Virus record (IMG/VR): IMGVR_UViG_3300026966_000012
Length of the DNA: 64,000 bases
Reading direction: 5' to 3' (one strand)
DNA from: a virus
Lineage: Duplodnaviria; Heunggongvirae; Uroviricota; Caudoviricetes
Below, piece by piece: positions 1 through 16,610 of this stretch. The position numbers were made by a program, and so were the translations under genes. Each line of letters begins with the position of its first letter. Positions within the stretch are counted from its first letter, which is position 1. The notes below the pieces were generated by a model, which saw only the letters and a list, made by a program, of their open reading frames with translations, had not been told where the DNA came from and did no database searches.

Positions 1-422
1 CGGGCTGCTGTAGCCCAGCGCCCTTTCCGCTTTCGCGCGCCGCCCCGCGCCCGCCCTGTCTGGTCCGTCAACTCCGCGAGGTGATAGTAGAGGATCTGAT
101 TAAATGCAGGAATCGTGATGTGAATACAACCCATCTACCCCCACCGCCGTGGGCCCTACTCGGCGACGCCTTCTGACGGCCGTAGCCCCTACCCTCCAGG
201 GTTGGCTCACGGCCCCCCACGCCCCGTGTACCGGGATTCATGCGCCTGTCTACGCCTGTCTCATTTCATACTCTCCGATGATACGACCCCCTCTGTTTCA
301 TCTCCGCGACCCGTCGCGTCAAACCGGCGGTGTATCAGATAGTAGAAACATTTAATATCGTATCACTCCAAGGATAAGATAGGACACCGGTCAAAACCGG
401 TGGCCAACTGGAGTGACCAGAG

Positions 423-881
423 ATGGCAAACGAGACCCAGGCGACTGAGGCACAGCAGACGACCATCGCGGGCGACGTCGACGTCGTCGACCCAACGCAG
501 CACGTCGTGGGCTTCAACGCGAAGACGATGAAGCGCGCGAAGTGGGAGGAGTACGACTTCGTGGTGACGGAGTCCGGCAACGTCGAGGTGCGCAACGCGT
601 CCTACGGGGACGACGCGGACGAGCACACGTACCACGTGGTGACTGACGCCGCGGGCATCCCGAAGTGGTGCCTGCACGCGCTGAGCGACGCGCACGAGGA
701 CGACTGGAAGCCGTGCCCGGCGATGGCCTACCACGCGGCGAAGAAGAACAAGGCGACGGGCCTCGAGACCGACGAGCTCGTGGCGCGGGGCGAGTACAGA
801 GTGTGCAAGCACGCTCTCGCCTACGCGCGCAACGAGGCGATCGTTCAGGCGGTCCGCCGCGTCAAGCAGGGTGACAACTGA
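423..881 (+). CDS. hypothetical protein, first ORF of an early cassette
   Basis: 152-aa ORF with high GC3; preceded by the module hairpin ACCGGTCAAAACCGGT and CTGGAGTGACCAGAG immediately before the ATG. Confidence 0.6.
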   Translation: MANETQATEAQQTTIAGDVDVVDPTQHVVGFNAKTMKRAKWEEYDFVVTESGNVEVRNASYGDDADEHTYHVVTDAAGIPKWCLHALSDAHEDDWKPCPAMAYHAAKKNKATGLETDELVARGEYRVCKHALAYARNEAIVQAVRRVKQGDN

Positions 882-1072
882 TGTCGTGCCCGAATTGCGG
901 CGGGGAGACCGGGCCGAACCCGGTGCGCGACGACCCGCGGACGCCGGCGATGGGCGGGCACGATCCGGGACCGACCGTCGTGTTCTGCTCGGCGGAGTGT
1001 GTCGAAACGTATGACGGCGACCCCGTGCCGGCCACGTGGGGCATCGCTATCAGCAGCCCGGAGGGACAGTGA
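881..1072 (+). CDS. small zinc-ribbon protein
   Basis: 63 aa with CPNCG...CSAEC; ATGA overlap with the upstream gene. Confidence 0.5.
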   Translation: MSCPNCGGETGPNPVRDDPRTPAMGGHDPGPTVVFCSAECVETYDGDPVPATWGIAISSPEGQ

Positions 1073-1299
1073 TGTTCCTGTTGGATGTCTACGCGGACGC
1101 TCACGACGAGTACCCGGTGCGGACGCTCGAGGCGACTGGTGTGGGGACGGCGGTGCTGACGGCGGCCCGGACGGCCGAGTCCCTCGCGGACGAAGCGTGC
1201 CGGCTCCAGGTCGGCGCTGCTGGCGAGGATGAACTGTTCGAGATGTTCCCCGACCCGGGGCATGGGACCGTGGTGGTCCGGGAGGTCGGTCGCCGATGA
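1072..1299 (+). CDS. hypothetical protein
   Basis: Internal ATG of track ORF 1036..1299 (offset confirmed by protein index); GTGATG overlap with the upstream stop. Confidence 0.45.
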   Translation: MFLLDVYADAHDEYPVRTLEATGVGTAVLTAARTAESLADEACRLQVGAAGEDELFEMFPDPGHGTVVVREVGRR

Positions 1300-1490
1300 A
1301 CGACGTCGAGTACGCGCTCTCCTGTGTCGAGATCGTGCACGGCTACCGCGATTACGTTCCGGAGGAGGTGCTGATGGGCGAGCCCGAGGTCGAACGGTTC
1401 GACAGTGCAGTGGCGAAGCTCGAACGCGCGATCGAGATGATCGATCCCGACGACCTCGCAGCCTACCACCAGCAGCGGGAGGCCGAGTGA
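1296..1490 (+). CDS. hypothetical protein
   Basis: 64-aa ORF; ATGA overlap. Confidence 0.45.
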   Translation: MNDVEYALSCVEIVHGYRDYVPEEVLMGEPEVERFDSAVAKLERAIEMIDPDDLAAYHQQREAE

Positions 1491-1669
1491 TGGTGGCCCG
1501 GCCGCGGCGCTGGATGGTGGTGACCGACGCCTGGACTGACGCTGAGTCGCCCGTGTTCCGTCGCATCCGGTCGAAGTTGGAGGCGCACAAGCTGGCACAG
1601 TTAACCGTGCGAGCGTACGACGATGGACGCCCGGTCGATGTCGTGGAGGACCTGAGCGATGAGCGGTAA
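1490..1669 (+). CDS. hypothetical protein
   Basis: Internal ATG (index 87) of track ORF 1229..1669, overlapping the previous stop (TGATG). Confidence 0.4.
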   Translation: MVARPRRWMVVTDAWTDAESPVFRRIRSKLEAHKLAQLTVRAYDDGRPVDVVEDLSDER

Positions 1670-1781
1670 CGTGCGCTGGCGGGGCCAGGAGTTCGGCGAC
1701 GGCCAGTTCATCGTCTGGGAGGGTGACCCGAACACGTCGAAGGCGTACGTGGCCGGGACGCCAGTCCCGAACGAGCCCTGA
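1659..1781 (+). CDS. small hypothetical protein (40 aa)
   Basis: Untracked ORF MSGNVRWRGQEFGDGQFIVWEGDP...; ends exactly at the conserved terminator motif GCTGTTCCGCTTTTGCGCC. Confidence 0.3.
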   Translation: MSGNVRWRGQEFGDGQFIVWEGDPNTSKAYVAGTPVPNEP

Positions 1782-1812
1782 GCTGTTCCGCTTTTGCGCC
1801 GCGCCCCGCCGC
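1781..1812 (+). terminator. conserved cassette terminator motif (T-tract in a GC context)
   Basis: CCGCTTTTGCGCCGCGCCCCGCCG; one of at least 13 copies. Confidence 0.45.
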
Positions 1813-1993
1813 TCGCCGACCCTGTCGTGTTTTCCTGTCGCCCCCTCGCGCGGCGTGGTGCGGCAACCCGGTGCCCTTGCGATGTCTCGGGTTTACCAGC
1901 AGTATCAAGTTATTAACATATCTTTATACTCGCTCCTCTCTTAGGTTAGGATAGGCACTGGGGAAACCCGGTGGCCATCTGGAGTGAAATCGA

Positions 1994-3658
1994 ATGGCAA
2001 GCAGTGACAACGACGTGGAGTACAGCACGGGACAGATCGGCGTCGACGAGGAGCGTATCATCGACGAGCTGATCTTCAGCCAGGCGGAGGGCATCGTCGA
2101 CGGCATCCGCGAGCTGGCGCAAAACGGCGTCGACGCACCCGGCTCGACGAAGGTCGAGATCAACGTGACCCCGGAGCGGACGGTCGTGGTCGACGACGGA
2201 GACGGGATGGACCTGAGCGACGAGTCGGTCCGGGAGTTCCTGACGAACCTGGGCCAGTCGACGAAGATCGACGATGAGGAGACGATTGGCCAGTTCGGCA
2301 TCGGCTTCGGTCAGGCGCTGGCGGTCGGGAAAGTGATAGTGCACAGCCAGGACTCGAAGGTCGAGTTCGACGCGAAGAACTGGTTCCGCGACTACCGGCT
2401 GTACGAGGCCGAGGAGCACTTCGACGGCACGAAAGTGACGATCGAGCACTACGAGGACGAGGTGCCCGAGGCGGGCGCGAGTGAGTGGTCCGACCACCTC
2501 GCCGACATCCGCACCCGGTTCCAGTACATGGAGCTGGTCAAGGGCGTTGAGGTGTGGCTGAACGACGAGCAAGTATCCGGATACGACCCGGCTGAGGACG
2601 ATGAGAACGCCACCGTCTACGACTCGGAACTGGCGTACATGGTCCTGAAGCACGAGAGTTACGACTGGATAACGGTGTACTCGGCGGGCCTGAAAGTCAC
2701 GGACGTCCGCGGCCACGGCATCGGGGGCACCGTGATCACGAAGCGCAACCTCGAGCTGAACACGGCGCGGAACAGCATCCGGTCTGGGTGCGAGGTCTGG
2801 CCCGAGGTCGAGGCCGAGATCGAGGAGGCACGTGTCGAGCTCCTGGACGCCGTCTCTGATTCGAAGCTGACGAACAGTGGTCGCGCGGCCGTGGGCCGCC
2901 TGGCCGCCCAGGGACACGAGGGGTTCGAGGACCGCGAAGTGTTCAAGCTGGCGAACGGTGAGATGACCACCCTCGAGACGATCCAGAGCCGAGACAGCAT
3001 CATGTTCGCTGACCAGACGGACAAGGCCGGGGGCAAGCTGGCTGACCACGGGAAGACCGTCCTGATGCGCAGCGATGGCGCGGTTCAGGCGATTCGGGAA
3101 GCGGTGAACCTCGGTCAGCTGAGCATCCCGGAGACGAAAGACGTCCAGGCGTCGGCGGCCGCGATGGGCATCGCGAACGGCTACGAGATCCTCGAGCCCG
3201 AGGAGTTCCACAGCAAGCCCCTGGCGATGGCCCGCATCCTGCGGGAGAAGATGGAGCAGTACAGCCCCTACGCGCTGGACCGGGAGATCGTGGCCGGAGC
3301 GGATAGCGGGGCCAACGCGTGGACGAAGCCGGACCCGTCGACCCTGAACCCGGTGGAGACGGCGGCGATCGCCGACTCTGAGTTCGAGTCGTTCGTCGCG
3401 ATCACGGACACCGCCTACAGCCAGTTGGCGAGCGAGGTCCTCGTGCTCGAGCTGTGGCGCATCCTGGCTCACGAGTTCGCCCACACGGAGGATTCGACGG
3501 GTGAGCCGTCCCACGGGTCGGGCTTCGCGATGCGCTTCCGCAAGATCCTCGACAAGACCCAGCCGGCGGCCGTCGAGCTCCTGAACGAGATTCGCCAGGA
3601 TGGTGTCACGGCAACGTTCGAGCGATACGACCACGGCGTCCCACACGCCCGCGCCTAA
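1994..3658 (+). CDS. GHKL-family ATPase (HATPase_c) with a C-terminal HExxH motif
   Basis: N-box ELAQNGVDA, G1 VDDGDGM, G2 GQFGIGFGQA; C-terminal ILAHEFAH; hairpin and CTGGAGTGAAATCGA leader before the ATG. Confidence 0.7.
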   Translation: MASSDNDVEYSTGQIGVDEERIIDELIFSQAEGIVDGIRELAQNGVDAPGSTKVEINVTPERTVVVDDGDGMDLSDESVREFLTNLGQSTKIDDEETIGQFGIGFGQALAVGKVIVHSQDSKVEFDAKNWFRDYRLYEAEEHFDGTKVTIEHYEDEVPEAGASEWSDHLADIRTRFQYMELVKGVEVWLNDEQVSGYDPAEDDENATVYDSELAYMVLKHESYDWITVYSAGLKVTDVRGHGIGGTVITKRNLELNTARNSIRSGCEVWPEVEAEIEEARVELLDAVSDSKLTNSGRAAVGRLAAQGHEGFEDREVFKLANGEMTTLETIQSRDSIMFADQTDKAGGKLADHGKTVLMRSDGAVQAIREAVNLGQLSIPETKDVQASAAAMGIANGYEILEPEEFHSKPLAMARILREKMEQYSPYALDREIVAGADSGANAWTKPDPSTLNPVETAAIADSEFESFVAITDTAYSQLASEVLVLELWRILAHEFAHTEDSTGEPSHGSGFAMRFRKILDKTQPAAVELLNEIRQDGVTATFERYDHGVPHARA

Positions 3659-3940
3659 GCGGGCCGTGGCGCGGCAACCCGGCGTCGGACCGGCGTGATG
3701 CTGCGGATCGAATCCGCCCGACGTCCTGGCGGCCTTCGCTACTGTCAAGTGAAGTGACCGCCTACACCCGCCTGGATGGGTCGGAGCCGTTTGTGGTAGG
3801 CTCATAGGCGGTGCGCCCGACCCGTCCCACTCCAGGTGGCCACGGCGTTTGCGATCGGGCTGGCTCCCTCGGGAGCTAAGTGGTCGCGACCGCGGGGTAT
3901 CGCTCCCCGTGTCACCTTTCGTACTGATTGCTCTGATACC

Positions 3941-3977: not shown

Positions 3978-4076
3978 GCCTTTCGGAATCCTGACTTGTC
4001 AGAACCCTTTATTACCGTATCCTGAGAAGGATTACATGGACCTCGAGAAAGCCGAGGCCAGCTGGAGTGACCAGAG

Positions 4077-4388
4077 ATGACAGATACAGCACGACTTGTC
4101 GTGAATGGCTATGTGGAACCGAGCGAGCGAGATACCCGAATTGTGTCGATCCTGGGGAGTCTGGCCGGCGTCCCGGACGGCCACCAGTTCGACTATCGCG
4201 GGATGACGATCGAAAAGCGCGTGACGACCGAGCGAGCGCGGCGCGAACCCGAGATCGCTGTCTACGACCCTGACGGCGAGTACGTCGACCAGTTCCAACC
4301 GCTCCTGTTCTCGTCGTACGAGATCGTGGAGATGCTCGACGAGATGCGAGCCTACTGGGTCGAGGAGAGTCGCGCCACGGCACTGTGA
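4077..4388 (+). CDS. hypothetical protein
   Basis: 103 aa; module leader CCTCGAGAAAGCCGAGG + CCAGCTGGAGTGACCAGAG before the ATG. Confidence 0.55.
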   Translation: MTDTARLVVNGYVEPSERDTRIVSILGSLAGVPDGHQFDYRGMTIEKRVTTERARREPEIAVYDPDGEYVDQFQPLLFSSYEIVEMLDEMRAYWVEESRATAL

Positions 4389-4468: not shown

Positions 4469-4486
4469 CCGAAAACTGGTATTTAC
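4469..4486 (+). promoter_or_regulatory. CGAAAACTGGTATWTA promoter motif, copy 1
   Basis: Same motif found upstream of the protease, sheath and TMP genes. Confidence 0.4.
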
Positions 4487-4520
4487 CGCGTGGGGCCTAC
4501 CGTGACATGGAGTACCAGAG

Positions 4521-4841
4521 ATGCCCCGACCGATCGAACGGATGGGTTGTGTTGCCGACCGACTGAGCGACGAGTGGGAGCTCGATGACATCGTGATCGA
4601 GCCGTCGGCGACCGTGACAGCAATCTACCGTCACGTATCCGGGGCGTACGTCATGTGGTCGGCCGACCCGGGACACACGGTACAGTTGTGGGAGGCCGAC
4701 GGATCGGTCGAGACGTGGCTCGATGACGACGAGTTCGCTGACCTGGATTCGGCGACCGAAACTGTCCAGACCTGCGTGGAAGTCATCGAACATGCGACCA
4801 ACCGCGCCCTACCACCAGCAGCGTCGACCCCGCGCCCGTAA
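4521..4841 (+). CDS. hypothetical protein
   Basis: 106-aa ORF, high GC3. Confidence 0.5.
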   Translation: MPRPIERMGCVADRLSDEWELDDIVIEPSATVTAIYRHVSGAYVMWSADPGHTVQLWEADGSVETWLDDDEFADLDSATETVQTCVEVIEHATNRALPPAASTPRP

Positions 4842-5016
4842 CGTTCCGCTTTTCCGCACCGCCTGCGCCAACCTGTCGACTTCCCGATTCAGTCTGACCT
4901 TGCTACGTTGTGTGATTACGGGCAAACACCTCAGATATACATATATTAATATTCACTCCACCCTTAGGTAGAAGTAGGCCAGGAAAACTGGCCCACCCGA
5001 ACGGAGATAGAGAAAG

Positions 5017-5166
5017 ATGCGATACAGAGTCTACGGTACGCACAGTGGCAACGAGTTTCAGGCACCTGTCGACGCAGTCGATGCGAGTGACGCGGTCGAC
5101 GAGTTCCTCGAGTCGGTCGAGGACCCGACCGAGTTCAGCGACGTCGAGGCCGAGGTCTGGGGGTAG
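5017..5166 (+). CDS. small acidic protein (49 aa)
   Basis: Untracked ORF after the module hairpin GGCCAGGAAAACTGGCC + CACCCGAACGGAG. Confidence 0.4.
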   Translation: MRYRVYGTHSGNEFQAPVDAVDASDAVDEFLESVEDPTEFSDVEAEVWG

Positions 5167-5651: not shown

Positions 5652-6059
5652 TCTCGACCCTGCTGCGGTTTGCATCGTTCCTGGTGGTAGTGAGCGGTTC
5701 GATTCCGTGACGATGCCTGGCCCCCGAGCCCTCAGACGATACGTTGATAGGTTCGCGGGGCCTATGCTCACGCGGCATCCGTTAGTGATGCCGTTCCGTT
5801 CGGGTGGGATAGCACGCGTCGGGCTGTCTCGGCAAGGGCAACCACGTCAGTCGAGATCAGAGGCTCGTGCAAACCCGTTGCCCGGGGCATTTGTCCCCGG
5901 GCGCCCTTTGGTACCGCCTCGAGCGAGAGCTCTTGTTCTCTGACATCGCGTATCCGCGCCCGAGCGCGCAAACCCGGTGTGATCATGCTACGATCCTGTT
6001 CTATCAGCAATATTATCTGACAAAGATATTATTATATCAGCTCCAGCCTAAGGTAAAGT

Positions 6060-6200
6060 ATGGCACGAAAAAGCCACTCGAGCGGAGATAGCGTGAACAA
6101 GCAGCGGTACCGCGGCAACGAGTCGACCGCCGACTTCGACCTGGGCGACGCACTGAGCCAGATCTCGGAGAGCCGCGAGGAGGACGAGGACGATGAGTGA
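6060..6200 (+). CDS. small acidic protein (46 aa), N-terminus MARKSHSSGD
   Basis: ATG inside the module hairpin TGGCACGAAAAAGCCA + CTCGAGCGGAG; untracked. Confidence 0.45.
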   Translation: MARKSHSSGDSVNKQRYRGNESTADFDLGDALSQISESREEDEDDE

Positions 6201-7539: not shown

Positions 7540-7607
7540 CCGCGCTCCGCTTTTGCGCACCGCCCCGTCGAATGAGTTATCAGTTTTGCGGTAGTATCGC
7601 CGAATAG

Positions 7608-8399: not shown

Positions 8400-8421
8400 C
8401 CCTCCACTCTTAGGTTAAGAT

Positions 8422-8583: not shown

Positions 8584-8734
8584 GGCACGTCCTCCCACGG
8601 GACGCGCCCCCATGTCAAGCCTTCGTCCACGCGCAGCGGAGAGTGGCGGCGCCGACGGCTCGCCCTCGCGGGCCCGAGCGCGGCAAACCGGCACCATGCG
8701 ACGCCCGCGGAATCCCCGCAGTATCAGCCGTCTT

Positions 8735-8748
8735 ACATATATTAAATA
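8735..8748 (+). promoter_or_regulatory. TATA box of a cassette promoter
   Basis: acatatattaaata, about 27 nt before the ATG at 8772. Confidence 0.45.
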
Positions 8749-8771
8749 CCCTACCCTGAGTAGGAAGAAGT

Positions 8772-9107
8772 ATGGGACAAAAATCCCACCCCCGACCGGA
8801 GCAGTGTGAAGTGCCAGGGTACTACTGGACCGCCCCCGAAGTCGTCGAGTGCTGGCGCGACCCCGAGGACGTGCTGATCGCGTGGGACGACGGTGTGTAC
8901 GTGCTGTGTGTCGGCGAGCCGGCCGAGCATGCGAGTGAGTCAGGGCGACCGCTGTGGTACGCGCCCGAAGTGCGAGTGCACGACGTGTTCGTCGACGGCG
9001 AGCGATTCGAGCTGATCGAGCGCGACGACGAGCGCCTGCGCAACGTGCGGGAAGTGAGAGTGACGCACGGGACTGCAAGCGCCGTCGCCGAGCTCGAGTC
9101 AGCGTGA
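8772..9107 (+). CDS. hypothetical protein, N-terminus MGQKSHPRPE
   Basis: ATG inside hairpin TGGGACAAAAATCCCA followed by CCCCGACCGGAG. Confidence 0.55.
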   Translation: MGQKSHPRPEQCEVPGYYWTAPEVVECWRDPEDVLIAWDDGVYVLCVGEPAEHASESGRPLWYAPEVRVHDVFVDGERFELIERDDERLRNVREVRVTHGTASAVAELESA

Positions 9108-9187: not shown

Positions 9188-9336
9188 GGCCCTGTCGCGT
9201 GCCGCTTTCCCGCCGCGCCCCGTCGACCGCCGTCTGTCGTTTCCCCTCCGTCCACTCCGTCACCTCCGCGCGCCGCGTCACTGAAACCCGGTGTCCATGC
9301 CACGATCCGTACCCGACGACAATATCAGCCGATTAA

Positions 9337-9349
9337 CATATCTATATAC
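9337..9349 (+). promoter_or_regulatory. TATA box of a cassette promoter
   Basis: catatctatatac. Confidence 0.45.
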
Positions 9350-9371
9350 TTGCCCCAGACGAAGGTTAAGT

Positions 9372-9575
9372 ATGGCACGAAAATGCCTCCCGGACGGGTA
9401 CAGCTGGACAGTCGACGGTGAAGACGCGCAGACGACCGAGATCTACGTCGAGAACGCAGAGGGTGAGCTGATCGGCAAAGACCACGTGGCGTCGCAGTTC
9501 GTGCGAACCGACGCCGAGCGCGAGGAAGTTGCGGCGCAGATCGCCGCGGGTGAGCGGGGGCGTCAGTTCCAGTAG
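9372..9575 (+). CDS. hypothetical protein, N-terminus MARKCLPDG
   Basis: ATG inside hairpin TGGCACGAAAATGCC; internal ATG (index 27) of track ORF 9291..9575. Confidence 0.5.
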   Translation: MARKCLPDGYSWTVDGEDAQTTEIYVENAEGELIGKDHVASQFVRTDAEREEVAAQIAAGERGRQFQ

Positions 9576-9689
9576 AGCGGCGCCGACTGTCGGTTTTACG
9601 CCGTGCCCCGTCGACCATGCGACGTTCAGCGGAAGTCGACAATATCAGCTGTCATACATATATTCATATTCGCTCCCGACCAAGATAAG

Positions 9690-9806
9690 ATGGGGAGAAA
9701 AGCCCCACCCGACGGAACCATGAGCTACGCGACCCACGTCCAGATCCGGAAGTTGCAGAGAGCGAGAGACAAGAGCCGCTGGCCGAGCGACGAGGACGAC
9801 GAGTAG
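9690..9806 (+). CDS. small protein (38 aa), N-terminus MGRKAPPDG
   Basis: ATG inside hairpin TGGGGAGAAAAGCCCCA + CCCGACGGAAC. Confidence 0.4.
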   Translation: MGRKAPPDGTMSYATHVQIRKLQRARDKSRWPSDEDDE

Positions 9807-9872: not shown

Positions 9873-9990
9873 CATCTCGAACCCTCACGTGCCCGAGCGC
9901 GGCAAACCGGCACCCTGCGACGTCCGTCACAAGTCGACACATATCAGCCGCTTTACGTGTCTTTAATACCCTACCAGCCCAAGGTATAGT

Positions 9991-10353
9991 ATGGAAGCCA
10001 AAAACTTCCCACCGCGAACGGTGCAGAGCGCAGAGCCAACCGACGTCGTCGAAGAAGACGGCTACCGAGTCCTGACGTACGAGGACGTCGACGTCGACAT
10101 TCGGATCTCGCGGACGATCAGCCCCGAGACGCCGAAAATCTGGGTCGCCGGCGACCGACTCGACACGCAAGTGGAGACGGTGACCGACGTCGAGTTCCTC
10201 GGCTTCGAGCTCTGGCGATACACCTACCTCGAGGGTAAGCCGACCCATGCCGGTGAGGGTCGACACCGAGGCCGATTCGCCGAGGTCGAGATCGAGGAGA
10301 ATCACTACGGCGAAGACGAAGTCCACGAGTTCAGCCTCAGGGTCAAGCGGTAG
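9991..10353 (+). CDS. hypothetical protein, N-terminus MEAKNFPPRT
   Basis: ATG in hairpin TGGAAGCCAAAAACTTCCCA. Confidence 0.55.
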   Translation: MEAKNFPPRTVQSAEPTDVVEEDGYRVLTYEDVDVDIRISRTISPETPKIWVAGDRLDTQVETVTDVEFLGFELWRYTYLEGKPTHAGEGRHRGRFAEVEIEENHYGEDEVHEFSLRVKR

Positions 10354-10394
10354 ACGGGGCTGACGCCCGGTTTCGCGCGCCGCCCCGCCGCCCG

Positions 10395-10700
10395 ACGACC
10401 CCTGTTTCCACTCCGTCTGGTCCAACGCGGAATAGTAGAGGAAATTATTATTTGCAGAGATCGAGCCCTGAATACAACCCGCCTCAGCGAGGTTCATGGG
10501 CGCTACACGTCGGCGAGTTTTGTGAGGCATGGCTCCTACCCCTTCGAGTTGGCTCACGGCATTCCGAGCGTCGTGTGGACGGTGTCTCCGCGAGGTTCGT
10601 GGGCATCTCAGGAAATGCCCCCTGATGATACGAGAACCCCTGTTTCCCTTCCGCGTGCCGCGTCACGCGAATCCGGCACGCGCCATGCGACGTCGACGTC
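10395..10700. ncRNA. copy B of a conserved roughly 250-300 nt non-coding element (candidate ncRNA or regulatory repeat)
   Basis: Aligns with 1..335 and 14085..14335; core CTCCTACCC..GCTCACGGC, GCRTCTCAGG, CCCCTGTTTCC. Confidence 0.35.
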
Positions 10701-10724
10701 CATCCAGCAGTAACAGCCGTCTTA

Positions 10725-10737
10725 CATATCTATATAC
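10725..10737 (+). promoter_or_regulatory. TATA box of a cassette promoter
   Basis: catatctatatac. Confidence 0.45.
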
Positions 10738-10760
10738 CTGCACCACTCTTAGGATAAGAT

Positions 10761-11138
10761 ATGGGAACCAAAAACCCATCCGAAGCGGAACAGAGCGACG
10801 AGATCCTCCCGGCCCTCGACCACCGCGGACTGACGGGCCACGGCAAGGCCCGACTCGAGGAGAGCGAGCTCGTGACCCCGTACCTCGTGCGGACCCTCCA
10901 GGAGGCGGACCCGGCCATCCTCCGGGCCCTCTCGCAAGTGGCTGACGCCGCCGCCTCGGCCCGGTACGGCCCCATCCAGGCCCAGCTGGCCAAGGACGAA
11001 AGCGCGAGCCGCGAGATCCAGCAGCAGTACTGGAACCAGCTGGACGACGTGAAGGGCCTGTCCCTCCTCTGCACGGAAATCCTGCGCGACGAGCGTGACG
11101 GCGTGCCCAGCGAGGACGACCCGAGACTCGGCTTCTAA
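10761..11138 (+). CDS. hypothetical protein, N-terminus MGTKNPSEAE
   Basis: ATG in hairpin TGGGAACCAAAAACCCA. Confidence 0.55.
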   Translation: MGTKNPSEAEQSDEILPALDHRGLTGHGKARLEESELVTPYLVRTLQEADPAILRALSQVADAAASARYGPIQAQLAKDESASREIQQQYWNQLDDVKGLSLLCTEILRDERDGVPSEDDPRLGF

Positions 11139-11504
11139 CGCCGACCAGCGCACTACCACCAGCAGCGGCTGGCCTGCGCACCGGTTTTCCGCCGTGCCCC
11201 GTCGCCCACGTGACCCTCGTTTCCGCTCCGCCCGCGACTGTCTCGTGCGATCGTCGCGCCCTGCTTGCGTACGTGTCCCCCCACTGTTACGCTCGTCACG
11301 CCTGCGTTCGCGGCCTGTGCTATCCGCGTCCGACCCCTGTTTCATCTCCGCGTGCCAAGGCGCGGCAACCCGGTGGCGTCCCCGTCAGCAAACGGGCCCT
11401 TTCTGCAAGCAATCCGACACTGAAATCTATAAAACGCTGTCTCAAGCCCTCTACACGAGGATTTAGACCAGAACCTTTATATCAAATCAAGTTCAAGAAG
11501 AAGT

Positions 11505-11744
11505 ATGGAATCAAAAATTCCATCCCGGACGGAGAGTGGCGAGAGTGTCGAAATCGCAGTCGGTCACCGAGCGGAGAGCGACGTCATCGCGCGGGCGCTC
11601 AACGAGAAGGCGCGGGAAGCCGAGCTCGAAGCGGAGCGGGCCGGGCCGAAAACGCAGCCCGTGCACGAGCTCGACGCCGCCGTGCTGCGAAGCGCCGCCG
11701 CCGAGTTCGAGCGCGAGTACGCCGAGTGGCGCGAGGAGCGATAG
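11505..11744 (+). CDS. hypothetical protein, N-terminus MESKIPSRTE
   Basis: ATG in hairpin TGGAATCAAAAATTCCA + TCCCGGACGGAG. Confidence 0.5.
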   Translation: MESKIPSRTESGESVEIAVGHRAESDVIARALNEKAREAELEAERAGPKTQPVHELDAAVLRSAAAEFEREYAEWREER

Positions 11745-12309: not shown

Positions 12310-12406
12310 CCTCGCGCGACGCGCCGCGGCAACCCGGTGAATCGGTCTAAGGGCTGTTACTACCGCATCACTGATATTTAATACCTCATGCGTCGAAGAT
12401 GAAGAT

Positions 12407-12868
12407 ATGGGACCAAAATCCCACCCAACGGGCGATGAAGCGAGCGATGAAGCGAGCGACGACGTCGTTGTCGTCGATGAGTGTGCGACGTGGGTCGGGC
12501 GACGCGAAGACGTGAGTGAAGACGAAGCCGTCGCCGCGATGAGCGATGTCGAGCGGGCCGTGAAGCGGGTCGCAGACGAGCGATGGGTCGACGTCGTGCG
12601 GGTCGCGATGTGCGACGACGAAGTGCGGGCCGTCGTGAAGATGAAGCAGTGTGAAGGGCCGGGTGCGGGCGCGACGACGTGGGCGAGCGCGTTGTGCGAC
12701 GTCGAGTTGGGCGACGGGCGCGAGCGCGAAGTCGATGTGAGCGTGACGTTGCCGGGCCGTGAAGGGATGTCGGGCGATGTGATGGGCGAAGTCGAAGTCG
12801 ACGGGCGCGAGTGGGAAGTGCGACGTGAAGTGTGGGTCGACGAAGACGGGCGCGAAGTCGGGCCGTAG
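12407..12868 (+). CDS. hypothetical acidic protein, N-terminus MGPKSHPTGD
   Basis: ATG in hairpin TGGGACCAAAATCCCA. Confidence 0.5.
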   Translation: MGPKSHPTGDEASDEASDDVVVVDECATWVGRREDVSEDEAVAAMSDVERAVKRVADERWVDVVRVAMCDDEVRAVVKMKQCEGPGAGATTWASALCDVELGDGREREVDVSVTLPGREGMSGDVMGEVEVDGREWEVRREVWVDEDGREVGP

Positions 12869-12995
12869 CGCGAGCGTGGGCGACGTCGCCGCCGGGCGAT
12901 GTCGTCGCGTGTCGGTTTCGCGCCGCGCCACCGCCCAACCAGCAGTTACAGCCGGAACACGTGCCTATATATCAGTATCATGAGAAGTAAGAAGT

Positions 12996-13334
12996 ATGGA
13001 ACCGAAAAGTTCCCACCGAGCGGAGTACAGTGAGCCGCCCATCGAGCTGGCGAATGCCGTGCGACGCGGCGAGCACTACCTGCTGGGCGACGTTGGAGAG
13101 TTCGTGGTCGACGAGATCGCTGTTGGGTACCCAGTCGAGGAGCGAGACGGCGTGGTCGCCCCGAACCGCGAGGCGTTCGTCACGCGTATCGAGTTTGTGG
13201 CGCCGGGCGAGTGTATCGTGATGGGTCTTGCCGAGCTCGAGGACCGCATCGATCGAACCGATGTGTTGCCCCTGACCGTGCGCGAACGCGATGAGGAGCT
13301 GCACGCGGAGTGGGAGAGCCACGGGCTGCTGTAG
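12996..13334 (+). CDS. hypothetical protein, N-terminus MEPKSSHRAE
   Basis: ATG in hairpin TGGAACCGAAAAGTTCCCA + CCGAGCGGAG. Confidence 0.55.
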   Translation: MEPKSSHRAEYSEPPIELANAVRRGEHYLLGDVGEFVVDEIAVGYPVEERDGVVAPNREAFVTRIEFVAPGECIVMGLAELEDRIDRTDVLPLTVRERDEELHAEWESHGLL

Positions 13335-13344: not shown

Positions 13345-13378
13345 CCGCTGCGGTCCGCTTTTGCGCCGTGCCCCGCCG
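13345..13378 (+). terminator. conserved cassette terminator motif
   Basis: GGTCCGCTTTTGCGCCGTGCCCCGCCGCTCG. Confidence 0.45.
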
Positions 13379-13438
13379 CTCGTCGCTGCTATTACCGGTA
13401 CGCTGACACTTATACTTGCACGAGTGGTAGGTAGAAGT

Positions 13439-13630
13439 ATGGTCAGAAACGACCACCCGAACGGAGAGCTGAGCGAGTACCAGAAGGCGAACGAGCTGAG
13501 CGACGACGAGTTGCGACAGCGCGTGATCGAGCTGCGGAGCGAGCCCGCGCCGCTGGTGGGAGTGGACAGCGAGTTGGAAGCCGCCGAGGAGGTCGCGCGA
13601 GACCGCGGGCTCGGGCTGGGGATGAGCTGA
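13439..13630 (+). CDS. hypothetical protein (63 aa), N-terminus MVRNDHPNGE
   Basis: ATG in hairpin TGGTCAGAAACGACCA + CCCGAACGGAG; internal ATG (index 43) of track ORF 13310..13630. Confidence 0.45.
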   Translation: MVRNDHPNGELSEYQKANELSDDELRQRVIELRSEPAPLVGVDSELEAAEEVARDRGLGLGMS

Positions 13631-14006: not shown

Positions 14007-14084
14007 CCCCGCCTCGCGATTGTGGCCAGTGTCGGTTTTGCGCCGTGCCCCGCCGACCCCTGCTTCCGGTCCAACGACGCTGTC

Positions 14085-14335
14085 CAGCGGATTGAGCCGA
14101 CTGTGCGCCCGCATCTGACTGTCTCCGGAGGGTCCAAGGGCGTCTCACGTCGGCGTGTTTCTGACGCTGTGACTCCTACCCTGTAGGGCCTGCTCACGGC
14201 GTTTTGACGCCTGTGCGGACACTGTCTCCCGGCGTTCTGTGAGCGTCTCAGGCTGTCGCTTGCCGTGATGTCGTACGCATGTCATGACCCCTGTTTCCAC
14301 TCCGCGCCACGTCGCGTCAAACCAGCAGTATCAGC
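14085..14335. ncRNA. copy C of the conserved non-coding element
   Basis: cacgtcggcgtgtttctgacg..ctcctaccctgtagggcctgctcacggc..gcgtctcagg..cccctgtttccactccgcg. Confidence 0.35.
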
Positions 14336-14342
14336 CGCCAAA

Positions 14343-14355
14343 CATATCTATATAC
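14343..14355 (+). promoter_or_regulatory. TATA box of a cassette promoter
   Basis: catatctatatac. Confidence 0.45.
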
Positions 14356-14378
14356 TTGTACCCTGAGAAGCATAAGAT

Positions 14379-14621
14379 ATGGGAAAGAAAAGTCCCACCC
14401 GAGCAGAACTGGCACAGAAACGCCGCGGCATCGTCAGCGCGCTCCCGTTCACGTGCCCGACCGAGCGAGGCGACCAGATCGTGGTGCACGTGCAAGACCG
14501 CAAGCTGGAGAAGTTCGAGCGCGTCGCGAAGCAGCTCGAGCTCGAAATCGTCGACCGCGAAGACGGCGGGAGTTCGCAGCAGGGCCGGCGCCTGCGCATG
14601 ACGCTGGAGACGGCCTCGTGA
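14379..14621 (+). CDS. hypothetical protein, N-terminus MGKKSPTRAE
   Basis: ATG in hairpin TGGGAAAGAAAAGTCCCA. Confidence 0.5.
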   Translation: MGKKSPTRAELAQKRRGIVSALPFTCPTERGDQIVVHVQDRKLEKFERVAKQLELEIVDREDGGSSQQGRRLRMTLETAS

Positions 14622-15295: not shown

Positions 15296-15330
15296 GGGCC
15301 CGCTTTTGCGCCGTGCCCCGCCGTCAGCCG
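15296..15330 (+). terminator. conserved cassette terminator motif
   Basis: CCCGCTTTTGCGCCGTGCCCCGCCG. Confidence 0.45.
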
Positions 15331-15421
15331 ACAGCAAACGGGCCTGTTCTGTGGACCGTTCCGTCCTGTTTTCGCGGATTCGGGCGTCTCAGGCCGTCTA
15401 CGCGCGGAATGGTGTGGGAAA

Positions 15422-15430
15422 ACTATATAC
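15422..15430 (+). promoter_or_regulatory. TATA box of a cassette promoter
   Basis: actatatac. Confidence 0.4.
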
Positions 15431-15453
15431 CTGTAAGTGTCCAAGTATAAGAT

Positions 15454-15651
15454 ATGGGACAAAAAATCCCAACCCGACGGAGAGCGACGCCGGCGAACCT
15501 CGAGCAGAGACTCGCCGAGATCGAGCGAGAGCTGCGGGCGATGAGCCGGGGCGACGTCGACGCAGGGACGTGCCGCTGGCTGCTGGAGGAGAAAGCCGAG
15601 CTGCGAGCCGAGCGCAACCGCCTGTTCGCGGCGACGGGGCGGTGGTCGTGA
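15454..15651 (+). CDS. hypothetical coiled-coil protein, N-terminus MGQKIPTRRR
   Basis: ATG in hairpin TGGGACAAAAAATCCCA. Confidence 0.5.
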   Translation: MGQKIPTRRRATPANLEQRLAEIERELRAMSRGDVDAGTCRWLLEEKAELRAERNRLFAATGRWS

Positions 15652-15800
15652 TGAGCGACGACGAGTTCCCGGGACCCGCGCCGATGGGCGCACGACCGCC
15701 GGACGTCGTCGAGCGGGCGAAGGAGATCGCGTACGGCGAGGTGTCGGCGACGTCCGAAGAAGTCGCCTGGGCGCTGGAGGTGATCGCGGATGAGCGATGA
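15651..15800 (+). CDS. small hypothetical protein
   Basis: Internal ATG of track ORF 15306..15800; TGATG overlap. Confidence 0.4.
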   Translation: MSDDEFPGPAPMGARPPDVVERAKEIAYGEVSATSEEVAWALEVIADER

Positions 15801-16029
15801 GTTGCTGGGCGTGATCGAGGTCGAGAGCAGCAAGCCGTACGTGAAAGACGTGTACGACGTGGTCCGCGTCGATGGGCCCGATCTCGAGACGGTCTGCGTC
15901 GAAGCTGGCGAGCGCCACGAGCTGGGCGACCGCGTCCGCTGGCCGAACGAGCTCGTGACGGTGATGTCCCGGGCGACGCTGTACGACCCCGACGGCAACG
16001 AGATCGAGATGGCTGAGCTCGGCCGATAG
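15790..16029 (+). CDS. hypothetical protein
   Basis: 79 aa. Confidence 0.45.
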   Translation: MSDELLGVIEVESSKPYVKDVYDVVRVDGPDLETVCVEAGERHELGDRVRWPNELVTVMSRATLYDPDGNEIEMAELGR

Positions 16030-16082
16030 GGCCCCGGCTCCCGCCTCGGCCTACGCGCGCCAAGGCGCCGCAACCCGGCAAC

Positions 16083-16120
16083 GCGTGTGGGTACGTACCG
16101 ACGTGTGTGTATGTACAGAC
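16083..16120. repeat. GTACGTACA alternating purine/pyrimidine element (degenerate copy)
   Basis: gcgtgtgggtacgtaccgacgtgtgtgtatgtacagacg. Confidence 0.4.
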
Positions 16121-16305
16121 GCCGACCCCGAACCCCGATTCGCCCGACCGGCTGCACTACCACCAGCAGCGACCGGCTCAGCCGACAAAAAACGGGCCCA
16201 CATCACGACGGTTTTCACGCGCGGAATCCAAAACGAACGCCTCAGGGCTCCTACGCGCGGAATGTGACCAGAAACTATATACCTGTCAAAGTACAAGTAT
16301 GTAAT

Positions 16306-16542
16306 ATGGAATCAAAAATTCCATCCCGACGGAGCAGCGAAGCGTGCGAGAACGGTGTCGAGAACGCGATCAGTGAGCGAGAACGTCGCCTCGTGCGGGA
16401 CGTGACGGCCATCGTCAACGAGCTCGAGACGATCTCGCAGCACGACGAGATGCTGAGCGGGCGAATGACGAAGCAGTGGGCCGAGGGGCTGTGCGACGCA
16501 GTCGACGAGTTCGCCGAGTCGGACCCGCACGCGCAGGAGTAG
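16306..16542 (+). CDS. hypothetical protein, N-terminus MESKIPSRRS
   Basis: ATG in hairpin TGGAATCAAAAATTCCA. Confidence 0.5.
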   Translation: MESKIPSRRSSEACENGVENAISERERRLVRDVTAIVNELETISQHDEMLSGRMTKQWAEGLCDAVDEFAESDPHAQE

Positions 16543-16544
16543 GG

Positions 16545-16610
16545 CGGGCGAGCGGGCTTTTTTGTGGGCGCTGATGTCGCGTGCCGATTTTCCGCCGTGC
16601 CCCGCGCCGC
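16545..16610 (+). terminator. T6 tract plus conserved terminator motif closing the cassette array
   Basis: gggcttttttgtggg, then GTGCCGATTTTCCGCCGTGCCCCGCGCCGCG. Confidence 0.5.

What the first reader, a model, noticed from the sequence alone, without database searches (positions are those of the whole stretch)
1..16610. Tandem array of about 25 mini transcription units built from one conserved promoter/leader/terminator module
Nearly every intergenic region in the first 16.6 kb is the same composite repeat. The order is: T-tract motif CCGCTTTTGCGCCGYGCCCCGCCG, then GCGCGGCAACCCGGYR (often followed by CCATGCGACG), then CAGTATCAGCCG, then a TATA box (ACATATCTATATAC), then about 25 nt to a stem-loop and the box CCCGAMCGGAG. 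Each unit then has 1-3 small ORFs, often ending with a zinc-ribbon ORF or a tiny TM peptide. This is a highly modular array of co-regulated cassettes. It resembles the promoter-early stem-loop (PeSL) modules of T4-like hyperplastic regions and intergenic-repeat early regions of haloviruses. It could mediate both coordinated early expression and cassette shuffling by recombination. I counted at least 19 promoter copies and 13 terminator copies by eye.
Basis: seen in the sequence. Interest (0 to 1): 0.85.

Follow-up and report, generated by a model that had tools for sequence, protein, structure and literature searches.

The report
Halovirus promoter-hairpin gene cassette array
The first 16.6 kb of this haloarchaeal virus-like genome holds about 20 short gene cassettes, each headed by a copy of one promoter module whose predicted transcript starts with a small conserved hairpin enclosing the start codon; related genomes differ by whole cassettes, so it is a new example of the viral gene-shuffling regions known from phage T4 and halovirus HGTV-1.

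Summary
The repeat is real and far beyond chance. A profile built from five copies and iterated finds 16 strong and 1 weak copy in 64 kb. All are on the + strand and all lie at 347-16332. With two more copies found by eye there are 19 promoter modules, 13 T-tract motifs and about 13 GC-hairpin motifs, framing 20 transcription units with 44 small ORFs, nearly all without known relatives.

The main correction concerns the "leader". A TATA hexamer starts 28-30 nt before an ATG that lies inside the stem-loop. In 14 of 14 such units this ATG is in frame with the best-scoring ORF, so most mRNAs are predicted to be leaderless. The stem covaries: 93.5% of cells are paired across 40 distinct copies from three genomes, with 22 double changes (0 of 500 shuffles reach this). 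The box after the stem is read in different frames. Selection therefore acts on nucleic-acid pairing, not on a peptide.

Two relatives carry the same modules with different cassette sets, and similarity breaks at module edges. They are an uncultured 155-kb contig and a 149-kb circular "plasmid" of Halobaculum halophilum. In two cases the module is fused in frame onto a gene. HGTV-1 has the same layout, including start-codon hairpins.

Verdict: a new member of a known kind. Early timing and the hairpin's function are untested.

The parts
1..16610 (+). Array of 20 same-strand transcription units (44 ORFs). It continues about 4.4 kb upstream of the window on the identical contig L118.
332..425 (+). 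Module 1, leadered. TATA about 351. Hairpin CACCGG/CCGGTG at 381-405 with no ATG. GGAGTGA, then ATG at 423.
1900..1996 (+). Module 2, leadered. Hairpin at 1952-1977. GGAGTGA, then ATG at 1994.
3990..4079 (+). Module 3. The hairpin ATG at 4036 opens a 14-codon upstream ORF. Its TGA stop overlaps the main ATG at 4077.
   Evidence: (D19)
4470..4523 (+). Module 4, degenerate. TATA-like element and GGAGTACCAGAG before ATG 4521. No hairpin.
4934..5019 (+). Module 5, leadered. Hairpin GGCCAG/CTGGCC. Box CCCGAACGGAG. ATG at 5017.
6008..6090 (+). Module 6. Start codon ATG 6060 lies inside the hairpin.
8378..8450 (+). Module 7. Start codon ATG 8422 lies inside the hairpin.
8719..8801 (+). Module 8. Start codon ATG 8772 lies inside the hairpin.
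9320..9400 (+). Module 9. Start codon ATG 9372 lies inside the hairpin.
9640..9717 (+). Module 10. Start codon ATG 9690 lies inside the hairpin.
9942..10022 (+). Module 11. Start codon ATG 9991 lies inside the hairpin.
10708..10790 (+). Module 12. Start codon ATG 10761 lies inside the hairpin.
11464..11535 (+). Module 13. Start codon ATG 11505 lies inside a 7-bp hairpin.
12363..12435 (+). Module 14. Start codon ATG 12407 lies inside the hairpin.
12943..13025 (+). Module 15. Start codon ATG 12996 lies inside the hairpin.
13395..13467 (+). Module 16. Start codon ATG 13439 lies inside the hairpin.
14326..14408 (+). Module 17. Start codon ATG 14379 lies inside the hairpin.
15406..15483 (+). Module 18. 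Start codon ATG 15454 lies inside the hairpin. The module is fused in frame to a gene that is an internal operon gene in relative V2.
16264..16334 (+). Module 19. Start codon ATG 16306 lies inside a 7-bp hairpin. Its N-terminal codons replace those of the V2 homologue.
26..49 (+). T-tract motif (putative terminator) after stop codon 11-13.
   Evidence: (D12)
1787..1811 (+). T-tract motif after the stop at 1781.
4845..4863 (+). T-tract motif (weak) after the stop at 4841.
7546..7571 (+). T-tract motif after the stop at 7539.
9200..9226 (+). T-tract motif after the stop at 9187.
9589..9614 (+). T-tract motif after the stop at 9575.
10367..10390 (+). T-tract motif after the stop at 10353.
   Evidence: (D5, D12)
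11180..11204 (+). T-tract motif after the stop at 11138.
12910..12929 (+). T-tract motif (weak) after the stop at 12868.
13355..13378 (+). T-tract motif after the stop at 13334.
14031..14056 (+). T-tract motif after the stop at 14006.
15300..15323 (+). T-tract motif after the stop at 15293.
16582..16605 (+). T-tract motif after the stop at 16542. A T6 run at 16557 precedes it.
300..329 (+). GC hairpin plus CAAACCGG motif.
1844..1873 (+). GC hairpin plus GCAACCCGG motif.
3655..3684 (+). GC hairpin plus GCAACCCGG motif, directly after the stop at 3658.
5950..5979 (+). GC hairpin plus CAAACCCGG motif.
8320..8349 (+). GC hairpin plus GCAACCCGG motif.
8664..8693 (+). GC hairpin plus GCAAACCGG motif, followed by CCATGCGACG.
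9263..9292 (+). GC hairpin plus GAAACCCGG variant.
9883..9912 (+). GC hairpin plus GCAAACCGG motif.
10649..10678 (+). GC hairpin plus GAATCCGG variant.
11346..11375 (+). GC hairpin plus GCAACCCGG motif.
12310..12339 (+). GC hairpin plus GCAACCCGG motif, directly after the stop at 12309.
14298..14327 (+). GC hairpin plus CAAACCAG variant.
16051..16080 (+). GC hairpin plus GCAACCCGG motif, after the stop at 16029.

Best explanation
This is the hyperplastic accessory-gene region of a large haloarchaeal tailed virus or virus-plasmid. Its terminase is 84% identical to that of the 149-kb circular 'plasmid unnamed3' of Halobaculum halophilum Gai3-2. It is only distantly related to HGTV-1.

Layout (shown). 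About 20 short same-strand transcription units are each bounded by a composite intergenic module. After the last stop codon comes an oligo-T motif, a short GC hairpin followed by CAACCCGG, or both. I infer that these are transcript 3'-end or terminator signals. Then comes an archaeal promoter, with a TATA hexamer at -28 to -30 and a conserved proximal element CCCTGAGWAG.

Start of the transcript (inferred from spacing). The predicted transcription start falls on, or a few nt before, an AUG. That AUG lies in the 5' arm of a 4-7 bp hairpin with an A-rich loop, followed by the box CCCGAnCGGAG. Most mRNAs are therefore predicted to be leaderless.

Three forms of the module (shown). In 14 units the hairpin AUG starts the gene. 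In one unit it starts a short upstream ORF whose TGA stop overlaps the main ATG. In three units the hairpin has no AUG, and GGAG(TGA) acts as a Shine-Dalgarno sequence for a start codon about 35-40 nt further on.

What the hairpin is (shown and inferred). The hairpin keeps its distance from the TATA box in all three forms, and its arms covary. I therefore take it to be a 5'-terminal RNA structure of the transcripts. Its most likely roles are to protect the 5' end from 5'-to-3' decay, to act as a handle for a regulatory factor, or both. The weaker stems found where the AUG must be read fit this view. This function is inferred, not shown.

Turnover (shown). The 70-100 bp modules are 70-90% alike and offer homology for recombination. 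Relatives differ by insertion, loss, relocation and replacement of whole cassettes, with breakpoints at module edges. The module can also be fused in frame to a gene, giving it a promoter, a start codon and about 8-11 N-terminal codons.
For: Repeat family and restriction to the array:
- nhmmer finds 16 strong and 1 weak copy, all on the + strand, at 347-16332.
- The covariance model finds copies only in the arrays of V1, V2 and V3.

Promoter geometry:
- A TATA hexamer starts 28-30 nt before the ATG, or its equivalent position, in all 18 units examined.
- Mapped HF2 promoters have the same geometry, with the TATA box beginning at -26 from the start site (PMC8707807).

The hairpin ATG is the start codon:
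- It is in frame with, and is the best-scoring start of, the coding ORF in 14 of 14 units.
- Several units have no other start codon after the box (sequence).

Hairpin:
- The minimum-free-energy fold puts a hairpin in the same register in 18 of 18 copies.
- Across 40 distinct copies from three genomes, 93.5% of cells are paired, with 22 double-change cells. None of 500 shuffles reaches this, and slid registers mostly give 35-52% (one, counted on few cells, reaches 94%).
- Watson-Crick hairpins anchored on the AUG: V1 14 of 14 against an 11.6% background (p = 8e-14). V2 8 of 9. HGTV-1 array 15 of 23 (p = 7e-10). Non-array genes: 2 of 26, 1 of 39 and 8 of 77.
- The signal is not a peptide. The box is read in different frames, and some relatives carry the hairpin ATG out of frame or closed by a stop.
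- Leadered copies have stronger stems (-11 to -16 kcal/mol) than AUG-containing copies (-4.6 to -7.9).

Terminator-like motif:
- 13 copies, all on the + strand, each 6-45 nt after the last stop of a unit.

Cassette turnover:
- V1 and V2 are collinear from window -4441 to 8107 (window coordinate = L118 coordinate - 8007), then mosaic, with similarity starting and ending at module edges.
- Of the 44 V1 ORFs, about 11 are shared with both V2 and V3, about 11 with V2 only, about 4 with V3 only, and about 20 are unique to V1.
- In-frame fusions at 15454 and 16306.
- A zinc-ribbon ORF lies in a different unit in V2.
- Cassette ORFs have no Pfam or PHROG family.

Precedents:
- HGTV-1 has the same layout.
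- PeSL elements are described in PMC2839356 and PMC4122927, and the HGTV-1 motif in PMC3950731.
Against: - There are no transcript data. Promoter activity, start sites, termination and timing are all inferred.
- The T-tracts are short (3-4 T). HF2 and phiH1 make long transcripts, and processing of long primary transcripts into shorter RNAs is documented for phiH1 and proposed for HF2 (PMC8707807), so the units may not be independent.
- Individual AUG hairpins are short and weak on their own (z between -0.2 and -2.7).
- The covariation counts use an alignment fitted to the model.
- G-U against A-C mismatches (2 against 2) do not tell which strand, or whether RNA or DNA, is selected.
- The literal box is not enriched by itself and its role is unknown.
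- Only three related genomes were found, so recombination events are few and no direction can be assigned to them.
Confidence: 0.7

Rival explanations
1. The palindrome at the start site acts in DNA. It would be an operator for a dimeric viral or host regulator that blocks or activates all cassette promoters together. No RNA structure would be involved.
For: The element overlaps the predicted start site, where archaeal repressors often bind. The outer bases TGG...CCA are nearly invariant. The G-U against A-C asymmetry is uninformative. The authors of PMC8707807 proposed that HF2 intergenic repeats bind virus factors.
Against: The inner stem positions change on both sides while keeping complementarity (22 double changes). 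Stem length (4-9 bp) and loop length (4 to about 12 nt) vary. This does not fit a protein that reads fixed half-sites at a fixed spacing. Stems are weaker exactly where the AUG must be translated, which only makes sense for RNA.
Confidence: 0.12
2. The units are not independent transcription units. Long polycistronic transcripts cross the array, and the hairpin with its GGAG box is an RNA-processing site that cuts them into stable monocistronic mRNAs.
For: The T-tracts are only 3-4 T. Several units lack any T-tract. HF2 makes long transcripts and phiH1 is documented to process its long primary transcripts into shorter RNAs (PMC8707807). T4 RegB cleaves GGAG in early mRNAs (my own knowledge).
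Against: Every hairpin is preceded by a TATA hexamer at a fixed -28 to -30. There is also a conserved proximal element, which a pure processing site would not need. The two models are not exclusive.
Confidence: 0.1
3. The conserved start region reflects a shared N-terminal peptide (M-G/E/A-x-K-x-P/H...) selected at the protein level, for example as a targeting or stability tag.
For: Fourteen V1 proteins begin with similar residues (MGQKSHP, MESKIPS, MARKSHS).
Against: Residues 2 and 5-6 covary as dictated by base pairing. The box is read in different frames. Four V1 modules and several V2 and V3 modules keep the hairpin without an in-frame ATG.
Confidence: 0.03
4. The modules are recombination sites of an integron-like or other site-specific cassette system, with hairpins recognised as folded single-stranded DNA like attC. 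Alternatively they are selfish miniature mobile repeats with no regulatory role.
For: Structure is conserved while sequence varies, as in attC. There is cassette-level variation between relatives. The PeSL authors drew the integron analogy (PMC2839356).
Against: No integrase or recombinase was seen in the array or its flanks. The hairpin is at the 5' start of the genes and is translated. All copies have one orientation and a fixed relation to TATA and ATG. Breakpoints fit ordinary homologous exchange.
Confidence: 0.05

Closest known systems
Conserved motif before the small ORFs of one arm of halovirus HGTV-1 (Sencilo et al. 2013, as summarised in PMC3950731): a TATA-like region plus an inverted repeat, likened to PeSLs
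   Same: Both are arrays of small same-strand ORFs without known relatives in a large haloarchaeal myovirus-like genome. Each intergenic region runs T-tract, inverted repeat, TATA, about 25 nt, then an ATG enclosed in a short hairpin. AUG-anchored hairpins are enriched in the HGTV-1 array (15 of 23 against a 10.8% background) and rare in its other genes.
   Different: There is no detectable sequence similarity, and the covariance model gives only weak hits. The HGTV-1 inverted repeat ACTCCTCGTGGCACGAGGAGT is conserved in sequence, whereas the GC hairpin here varies. HGTV-1 has extra TATA-like boxes. The terminases are only about 25% identical. I could not read the original paper, so I do not know whether the start-codon hairpin was described there.
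PeSL (promoter-early stem-loop) cassettes of T4-type phages (PMC2839356, PMC4122927)
   Same: Both are composite terminator-plus-promoter repeats. Both are concentrated in hyperplastic regions and flank ORFs without known relatives. Insertions, deletions and replacements between close relatives map to the repeats.
   Different: PeSLs have a bacterial sigma-70 promoter with an UP element and a G/C stem-loop terminator upstream of it. Here the promoter is an archaeal TATA type, the terminator-like part is a T-tract with or without a GC hairpin, and there is a second, covarying hairpin at the 5' end of the transcript that contains the start codon. PeSL crossovers map from the stem-loop to the region between -10 and the ATG, whereas here the module can also donate N-terminal codons. 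Mini-circles are not tested here.
[quoted passage not shown]
   Same: Both are repeated intergenic sequences in a haloarchaeal myovirus that carry TATA-type promoters. In HF2 this was shown experimentally. In both cases the repeats are conserved in related viruses.
   Different: HF2 has only 9 repeats of 58 or 29 bp. They are spread over 16-77 kb and absent from its first 16 kb. They head long transcripts of up to 35 kb. No start-codon hairpin, no linked terminator motif and no cassette turnover were reported. There is no sequence similarity.

Membership tests
T4-type PeSL cassettes | Strong sigma-70-like early promoter (-35, -10, AT-rich UP region) | tested here: not met
   The promoter is of the archaeal type, with a TATA hexamer at -28 to -30 from the ATG and no -35/-10 pair.
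T4-type PeSL cassettes | Stem-loop terminator joined to the promoter in one intergenic repeat | tested here: met
   A T-tract motif (13 copies), a GC hairpin motif (about 13 copies), or both lie upstream of the promoter in the same intergenic region. Terminator function itself is not tested.
T4-type PeSL cassettes | Concentrated in hyperplastic regions and flanking ORFs without known relatives | tested here: met
   All copies lie in one 16.6-kb stretch (about 21 kb with L118). The cassette ORFs have no Pfam or PHROG match.
T4-type PeSL cassettes | Insertions, deletions and replacements between close relatives have breakpoints at the repeats | tested here: met
   V1/V2/V3 comparison.
T4-type PeSL cassettes | Recombination between neighbouring repeats yields circular cassette DNAs | not testable with these tools
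   This needs inverse PCR on infected cells or virions.
HGTV-1 PeSL-like motif array | Most small ORFs of one genome arm are preceded by a conserved motif with a TATA-like box and an inverted repeat | tested here: met
   19 of 20 units here carry the module. The HGTV-1 layout was read directly from NC_021328.1.
HGTV-1 PeSL-like motif array | Sequence homology of the motif to that of HGTV-1 | tested here: not met
   No BLAST match. Covariance model R1 gives only weak hits in HGTV-1, at best 19 bits.
HGTV-1 PeSL-like motif array | Start codon enclosed in a hairpin at array genes (a feature found here, not part of the published definition as far as I could check) | tested here: met
   V1 14 of 14, V2 8 of 9, HGTV-1 15 of 23. 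Controls are 3-12%.
HF2 intergenic repeats (class I and II) | 58-bp or 29-bp repeat with the alpha, beta and gamma motifs (for example TCTTTAAGTC, CGTCTNNTAGAG) | tested here: not met
   No similarity to any phage record. The motifs differ from those listed in PMC8707807.
HF2 intergenic repeats (class I and II) | Experimentally shown promoter activity with a mapped start site | not testable with these tools
   Only the geometry is comparable: TATA at -26 in HF2 and -28 to -30 from the ATG here.
Integron-type cassette arrays | Adjacent integrase and attC hairpins at the 3' ends of cassettes | tested here: not met
   No integrase was seen in the array or its flanks. The hairpin is at the 5' start of the genes and is translated.
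Any Rfam RNA family | A match at the gathering threshold | tested here: not met
   There were 0 matches in the 64 kb.

The most novel reading that the evidence does not exclude
The covarying hairpin that encloses the 5'-terminal AUG, together with the CGGAG-containing box after it, may be a previously unrecognised virus-specific cis-regulatory RNA element. It is shared by distantly related large haloarchaeal myovirus-like genomes (this lineage and HGTV-1). It would mark the leaderless mRNAs of accessory or early cassettes for selective 5'-end protection, for translational control, or for timed destruction by a viral factor. The module would also be a portable unit of promoter, start codon and first codons that can activate any promoterless ORF by in-frame fusion.
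Probability: 0.3. Interest if true: 0.7.

Novelty: new member of a known kind. Interest (0 to 1): 0.5.

Why it matters
Regulatory cassettes that both drive and reshuffle accessory genes are well documented in T4-type phages. In archaeal viruses they have only been sketched, for HGTV-1. This locus gives a clean three-genome example with visible recombination products. One of these products is a promoter module that donates the start codon and the first codons of a gene.

It also exposes a start-codon hairpin with real covariation on predicted leaderless mRNAs. That bears on how leaderless messages are stabilised or controlled in haloarchaea.

One relative is a 149-kb circular replicon in a cultured strain, Halobaculum halophilum Gai3-2. 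The predictions on start sites, termination, hairpin function and mini-circles can therefore be tested directly.

Tried and rejected
- Megablast and blastn of the array and of one module against 50,697 phage records gave no real match.
- Rfam gave nothing. No tRNA genes were found.
- Exact-pattern scans of IMG/VR for the T-tract motif gave 0 hits. Scans for GCGCGGCAACCCGGYR gave more than 117 single chance hits in GC-rich contigs.
- A hairpin pattern found only the known relative in IMG/VR. In GTDB genomes it found two chance hits, in Porphyromonas and a cyanobacterium.
- The protein-based locus search in GTDB genomes found nothing. The metagenome scan returned the same relative as IMG/VR.
- The Halalkaliarchaeum chromosomal homologue of the HATPase gene has no modules around it.
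- The original HGTV-1 paper could not be read. One literature search was uninformative.
- My first hairpin-enrichment test allowed G-U pairs and had a 53% background, so I redid it with Watson-Crick pairs only.
- G-U against A-C asymmetry, meant to tell RNA from DNA, was inconclusive at 2 against 2.
- A conserved fold for the ~230-nt intergenic inserts is not supported (covariation term -0.12).
- A conserved N-terminal peptide was rejected on frame and covariation grounds. An integron-like system was rejected for lack of an integrase and because the hairpin is in the wrong position.

Full report
**What the window is.**
The 64 kb is GC-rich: 0.61-0.66 in the first 16 kb and 0.53-0.63 after. It encodes a T4-type large terminase, a class II-like ribonucleotide reductase, a DpdA homologue and a tail-sheath-like DUF3383 protein. 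No phage record matches it at the DNA level. The terminase is at best 31% identical to cultured phages and about 25% identical to halovirus HGTV-1.

An identical JGI metagenome contig (L118) extends the window 8 kb upstream. Two relatives were found:
- V2 is an uncultured contig present in both IMG/VR and ENA, 154.8 kb in the latter.
- V3 is the circular 148,857-bp 'plasmid unnamed3' of Halobaculum halophilum Gai3-2. Its terminase is 84% identical to that of the window, and it has the same gene order from the array through the HATPase gene to the terminase, with DNA polymerase and helicase genes upstream of its array.

The locus therefore belongs to a lineage of roughly 150-kb haloarchaeal tailed virus-like replicons.

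**Checking the observation.**
A profile built from five copies and iterated finds 16 copies with E of 1e-8 to 1e-18 and one weak copy. All are on the + strand at 347-16332, and nothing comparable lies in the remaining 47 kb. With two further copies seen by eye this gives 19 promoter modules.

The T-tract motif has 13 copies, all on the + strand, each 6-45 nt after the last stop codon of a unit. The GCGCGGCAACCCGG motif has 9 strict copies against 0.4 expected and about 13 loose ones, each preceded by a short GC hairpin.

A self-trained codon model ORFs in 20 units, so 'about 25' is somewhat high for the window. The array does continue about 4.4 kb upstream in L118.

The literal sub-motifs are each present only in subsets. 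The 14-mer TATA string has 4 near-exact copies in the array. The 11-mer box is not enriched by itself. Three or more upstream promoter contexts share the same hairpin: a CAGTATCAGCCG type, a GATAAAGAAACAC type and a CAGAAACTATATACC type.

**The main correction: the 'leader' is mostly coding.**
In 14 units the 5' arm of the stem-loop contains an ATG, as in AAGTATGGGACAAAAATCCCACCCGACGGAG. In all 14 this ATG is in frame with the coding ORF and is its best-scoring start. Several units have no alternative start codon after the box.

The TATA hexamer starts 28-30 nt before the A of this ATG in every unit. This is the geometry of mapped haloarchaeal virus promoters, where the TATA box begins at -26 from the start site (PMC8707807). 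These mRNAs are therefore predicted to be leaderless, or to have at most about 4 nt of leader.

The remaining hairpin-bearing units differ:
- Three units (347, 1900, 4934) have ATA or GTA in place of the ATG. They use a start codon about 35-40 nt downstream, preceded by GGAG(TGA).
- One unit (3990) has a hairpin ATG that opens a 14-codon upstream ORF. Its TGA stop overlaps the main ATG. V2 shows the same arrangement twice.

**The hairpin is selected as a structure.**
Folding each copy alone puts a hairpin in the same register in 18 of 18 copies. A covariance model built from six copies finds the others in V1, V2 and V3, and only within the arrays.

On 40 distinct copies, 93.5% of cells are paired, 4 of 5 pairs show changes on both sides, and there are 22 double-change cells. 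None of 500 shuffles reaches these values. Most slid registers fall to 35-52%, although one, counted on only 48 cells, reaches 94% with no double changes (one search gives the result for two genomes). This alignment is fitted to the model, so I added an independent test.

The independent test counts Watson-Crick stems of at least 4 bp anchored on the A, U or G of the start codon:

| Gene set | With anchored hairpin | Background or note |
|---|---|---|
| V1 module starts | 14 of 14 | 11.6% of all ATGG sites, p = 8e-14 |
| V2 module starts | 8 of 9 | p = 2e-6 |
| Non-array genes in the window | 2 of 26 | control |

The inner stem positions are codon 2 and codons 5-6, and these residues change with the pairing. 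The box is read in different frames in different copies, for example ACG GAG against CGG AGA. Relatives keep the hairpin where its ATG is out of frame. A conserved peptide is therefore excluded.

The hairpin keeps its distance from the TATA box whether or not it holds the start codon. Leadered copies have much stronger stems (-11 to -16 kcal/mol) than AUG-containing ones (-4.6 to -7.9). Both points fit a structure tied to the 5' end of the RNA and limited by the need to translate the AUG.

G-U against A-C mismatches are too few to separate RNA from DNA. Variable stem and loop lengths argue against a fixed-spacing protein operator.

**Likely function.**
The following are shown:
- the anatomy and its restriction to the array;
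- the covariation of the stem;
- the position of the start codon inside the hairpin.

The following are inferred:
- Each module is an active promoter.
- The T-tract and the GC hairpin act as terminators or attenuators.
- The hairpin protects the 5' end or binds a factor. Stable 5'-terminal stem-loops protect bacterial mRNAs (my own knowledge; PMC3997798, found but not read, reviews the initiation of mRNA decay in bacteria), and archaea have 5'-to-3' exoribonucleases (PMC3792030).
- Expression is early, by analogy with T4 hyperplastic regions.

The GGAG core of the box is a plausible Shine-Dalgarno sequence in the leadered copies. Its retention about 20 nt inside leaderless genes, seen loosely in HGTV-1 too, is unexplained. 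A cleavage or binding site is possible.

**Cassette turnover.**
V1 and V2 are 78-82% identical and collinear from window -4441 to 8107 (window coordinate = L118 coordinate - 8007). The next 8.8 kb of V1 then faces 5.6 kb of V2, with only islands of similarity. These islands begin and end at module edges: 10757-11136, 14321-14612 and 15482-15790.

Of the 44 V1 ORFs, about 11 have homologues in both V2 and V3, about 11 in V2 only, about 4 in V3 only, and about 20 in neither. V3 carries 13 or more modules of its own. A CxxC ORF of unit 5 has its V2 homologue in a different unit.

Two junctions are especially clear:
- The V1 gene at 15454 reads MGQKIPTRRRA|TPANLEQRL. Its V2 homologue is an internal operon gene reading MRRS|TPADLEQRL.
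- The V1 gene at 16306 reads MESKIPSRRSS|EACENGVE. The V2 gene reads MSDETG|EACARGVE.

The module therefore arrives with the start codon and 8-11 codons. It does not show the mechanism, although ordinary homologous exchange between modules that are 70-90% alike is sufficient.

**Comparison with known systems.**
PeSLs of T4-type phages are composite terminator-promoter repeats. They flank ORFs without known relatives in hyperplastic regions and mediate insertions, deletions and mini-circles (PMC2839356, PMC4122927). The present array works like this but is not a member, because the promoter is archaeal and the sequences are unrelated.

HF2 intergenic repeats are proven promoters (PMC8707807). 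They are few, head long transcripts and share no sequence or hairpin with this array.

The closest precedent is HGTV-1. A review reports that most ORFs of one arm are preceded by a TATA-like motif with an inverted repeat, likened to PeSLs (PMC3950731). I read the HGTV-1 genome directly. At 128-143.8 kb each intergenic region runs T-tract, ACTCCTCGTGGCACGAGGAGT, TATATAA, CTTAATAC, about 25 nt, then GTATGG-hairpin at the annotated start.

AUG-anchored hairpins occur at 15 of 23 HGTV-1 array starts (p = 7e-10), against 1 of 39 and 8 of 77 of its other genes. The layout, including the start-codon hairpin, is thus shared by two distant lineages, without detectable sequence homology. I could not read the original paper, so I cannot say whether that hairpin was already noted.

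**Verdict.**
This is a new member of a known kind, with one feature that may be new, the covarying start-codon hairpin on predicted leaderless mRNAs. A cultured host now makes it testable. Interest is moderate.

Noticed in passing
window + strand: 1463, 4809, 11153, 16157, 17119, 24124, 27679, 36885, 47637, 52425, 56369, 62271; - strand: 5690, 16928, 19590, 22027, 30290, 42370, 57748: A dispersed motif of about 17 nt, (T/G)CACTACCACCAG(C/A)AGCG, is spread over the whole 64 kb. Its 10-nt core CTACCACCAG occurs 19 times against 0.1 expected. It lies on both strands, in coding DNA (several frames) and in intergenic DNA. V2 has the variant GATGCCACCAGCAGCG at homologous places (6 copies in 21.6 kb). 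V3 and HGTV-1 have none. Function is unknown; it may be a protein-binding, recombination or modification target.
   Followed up: partly
window 49-300, 10397-10653, 14055-14304 (shorter copy 11212-11350); L119 8130-8420; L130 about 24768-24903: A noncoding element of about 230 nt is inserted in three intergenic modules. It is flanked by a 19-nt direct repeat, GACCCCTGTTTCCACTCCG, that is itself part of the module. The element is conserved in V2 and V3 and contains an AT-rich box (GATTAAATGCAG). No conserved fold is supported. It may be a small RNA gene or a miniature mobile element.
   Followed up: partly
window 3942-3973, 9839-9870, 16085-16120, 24141-24160: Paired TGTACGTAC motifs (GTGTGTACGTACATAC) occur 9 times against 0.36 expected. 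They lie in long intergenic spacers. One lies just upstream of the terminase gene, directly after a CTACCACCAG motif.
   Followed up: partly
window 7608-8120 and 8136-8235: The one unit without the standard module encodes an HTH-HNH endonuclease (PHROG 7545, E = 6e-19). It is conserved in V2 and V3. It is followed by four direct repeats of GCGTATCC(C) spaced about 30 nt apart.
   Followed up: partly
window 4385-4468, 9104-9187, 12229-12309 (also L118 7496-7606): Three similar hydrophobic mini-ORFs of 26-27 aa (MIVAATAVAVVVVGLWLF..., MIVAVVALLVVLIGLAVF..., MLVVLLVALLVVLFGVWLV...) each sit last in a unit. Each overlaps the stop codon of the preceding ORF.
   Followed up: no
window 1994-3658: The largest array gene encodes a 554-aa HATPase_c_3 protein, with a weak match to the PHROG for T4 RIIA. 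It is conserved in V2 (79%) and V3 (66%). A 46%-identical homologue lies in the Halalkaliarchaeum desulfuricum chromosome, next to an integrase, a ThsB-TIR gene and an Eco57I-type gene. This suggests a role in defence or counter-defence.
   Followed up: partly
L130 = NZ_CP058532.1 60000-105000: The circular 149-kb 'plasmid unnamed3' of Halobaculum halophilum Gai3-2 carries a terminase 84% identical to that of the window, a family-B-type DNA polymerase, a helicase and the same cassette array. It is probably a virus-plasmid or an episomal provirus rather than an ordinary plasmid.
   Followed up: partly
window about 16610-17130: There is a sharp drop in GC (0.65 to 0.59) and a 590-nt AT-rich spacer at the right edge of the array. 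The spacer holds a divergent module-like promoter (AAATTATATATCC ... ATGTCCCTCCCGTGGAACGGAGTGA) before the next gene block.
   Followed up: no
window 39647-40915, 47246-50236; L118 1-3494: The virus encodes a DpdA homologue (7-deazaguanine DNA modification), a ribonucleotide reductase with a TSCPD domain and, just upstream of the array on the other strand, an MmeI/Eco57I-type methyltransferase-endonuclease.
   Followed up: no
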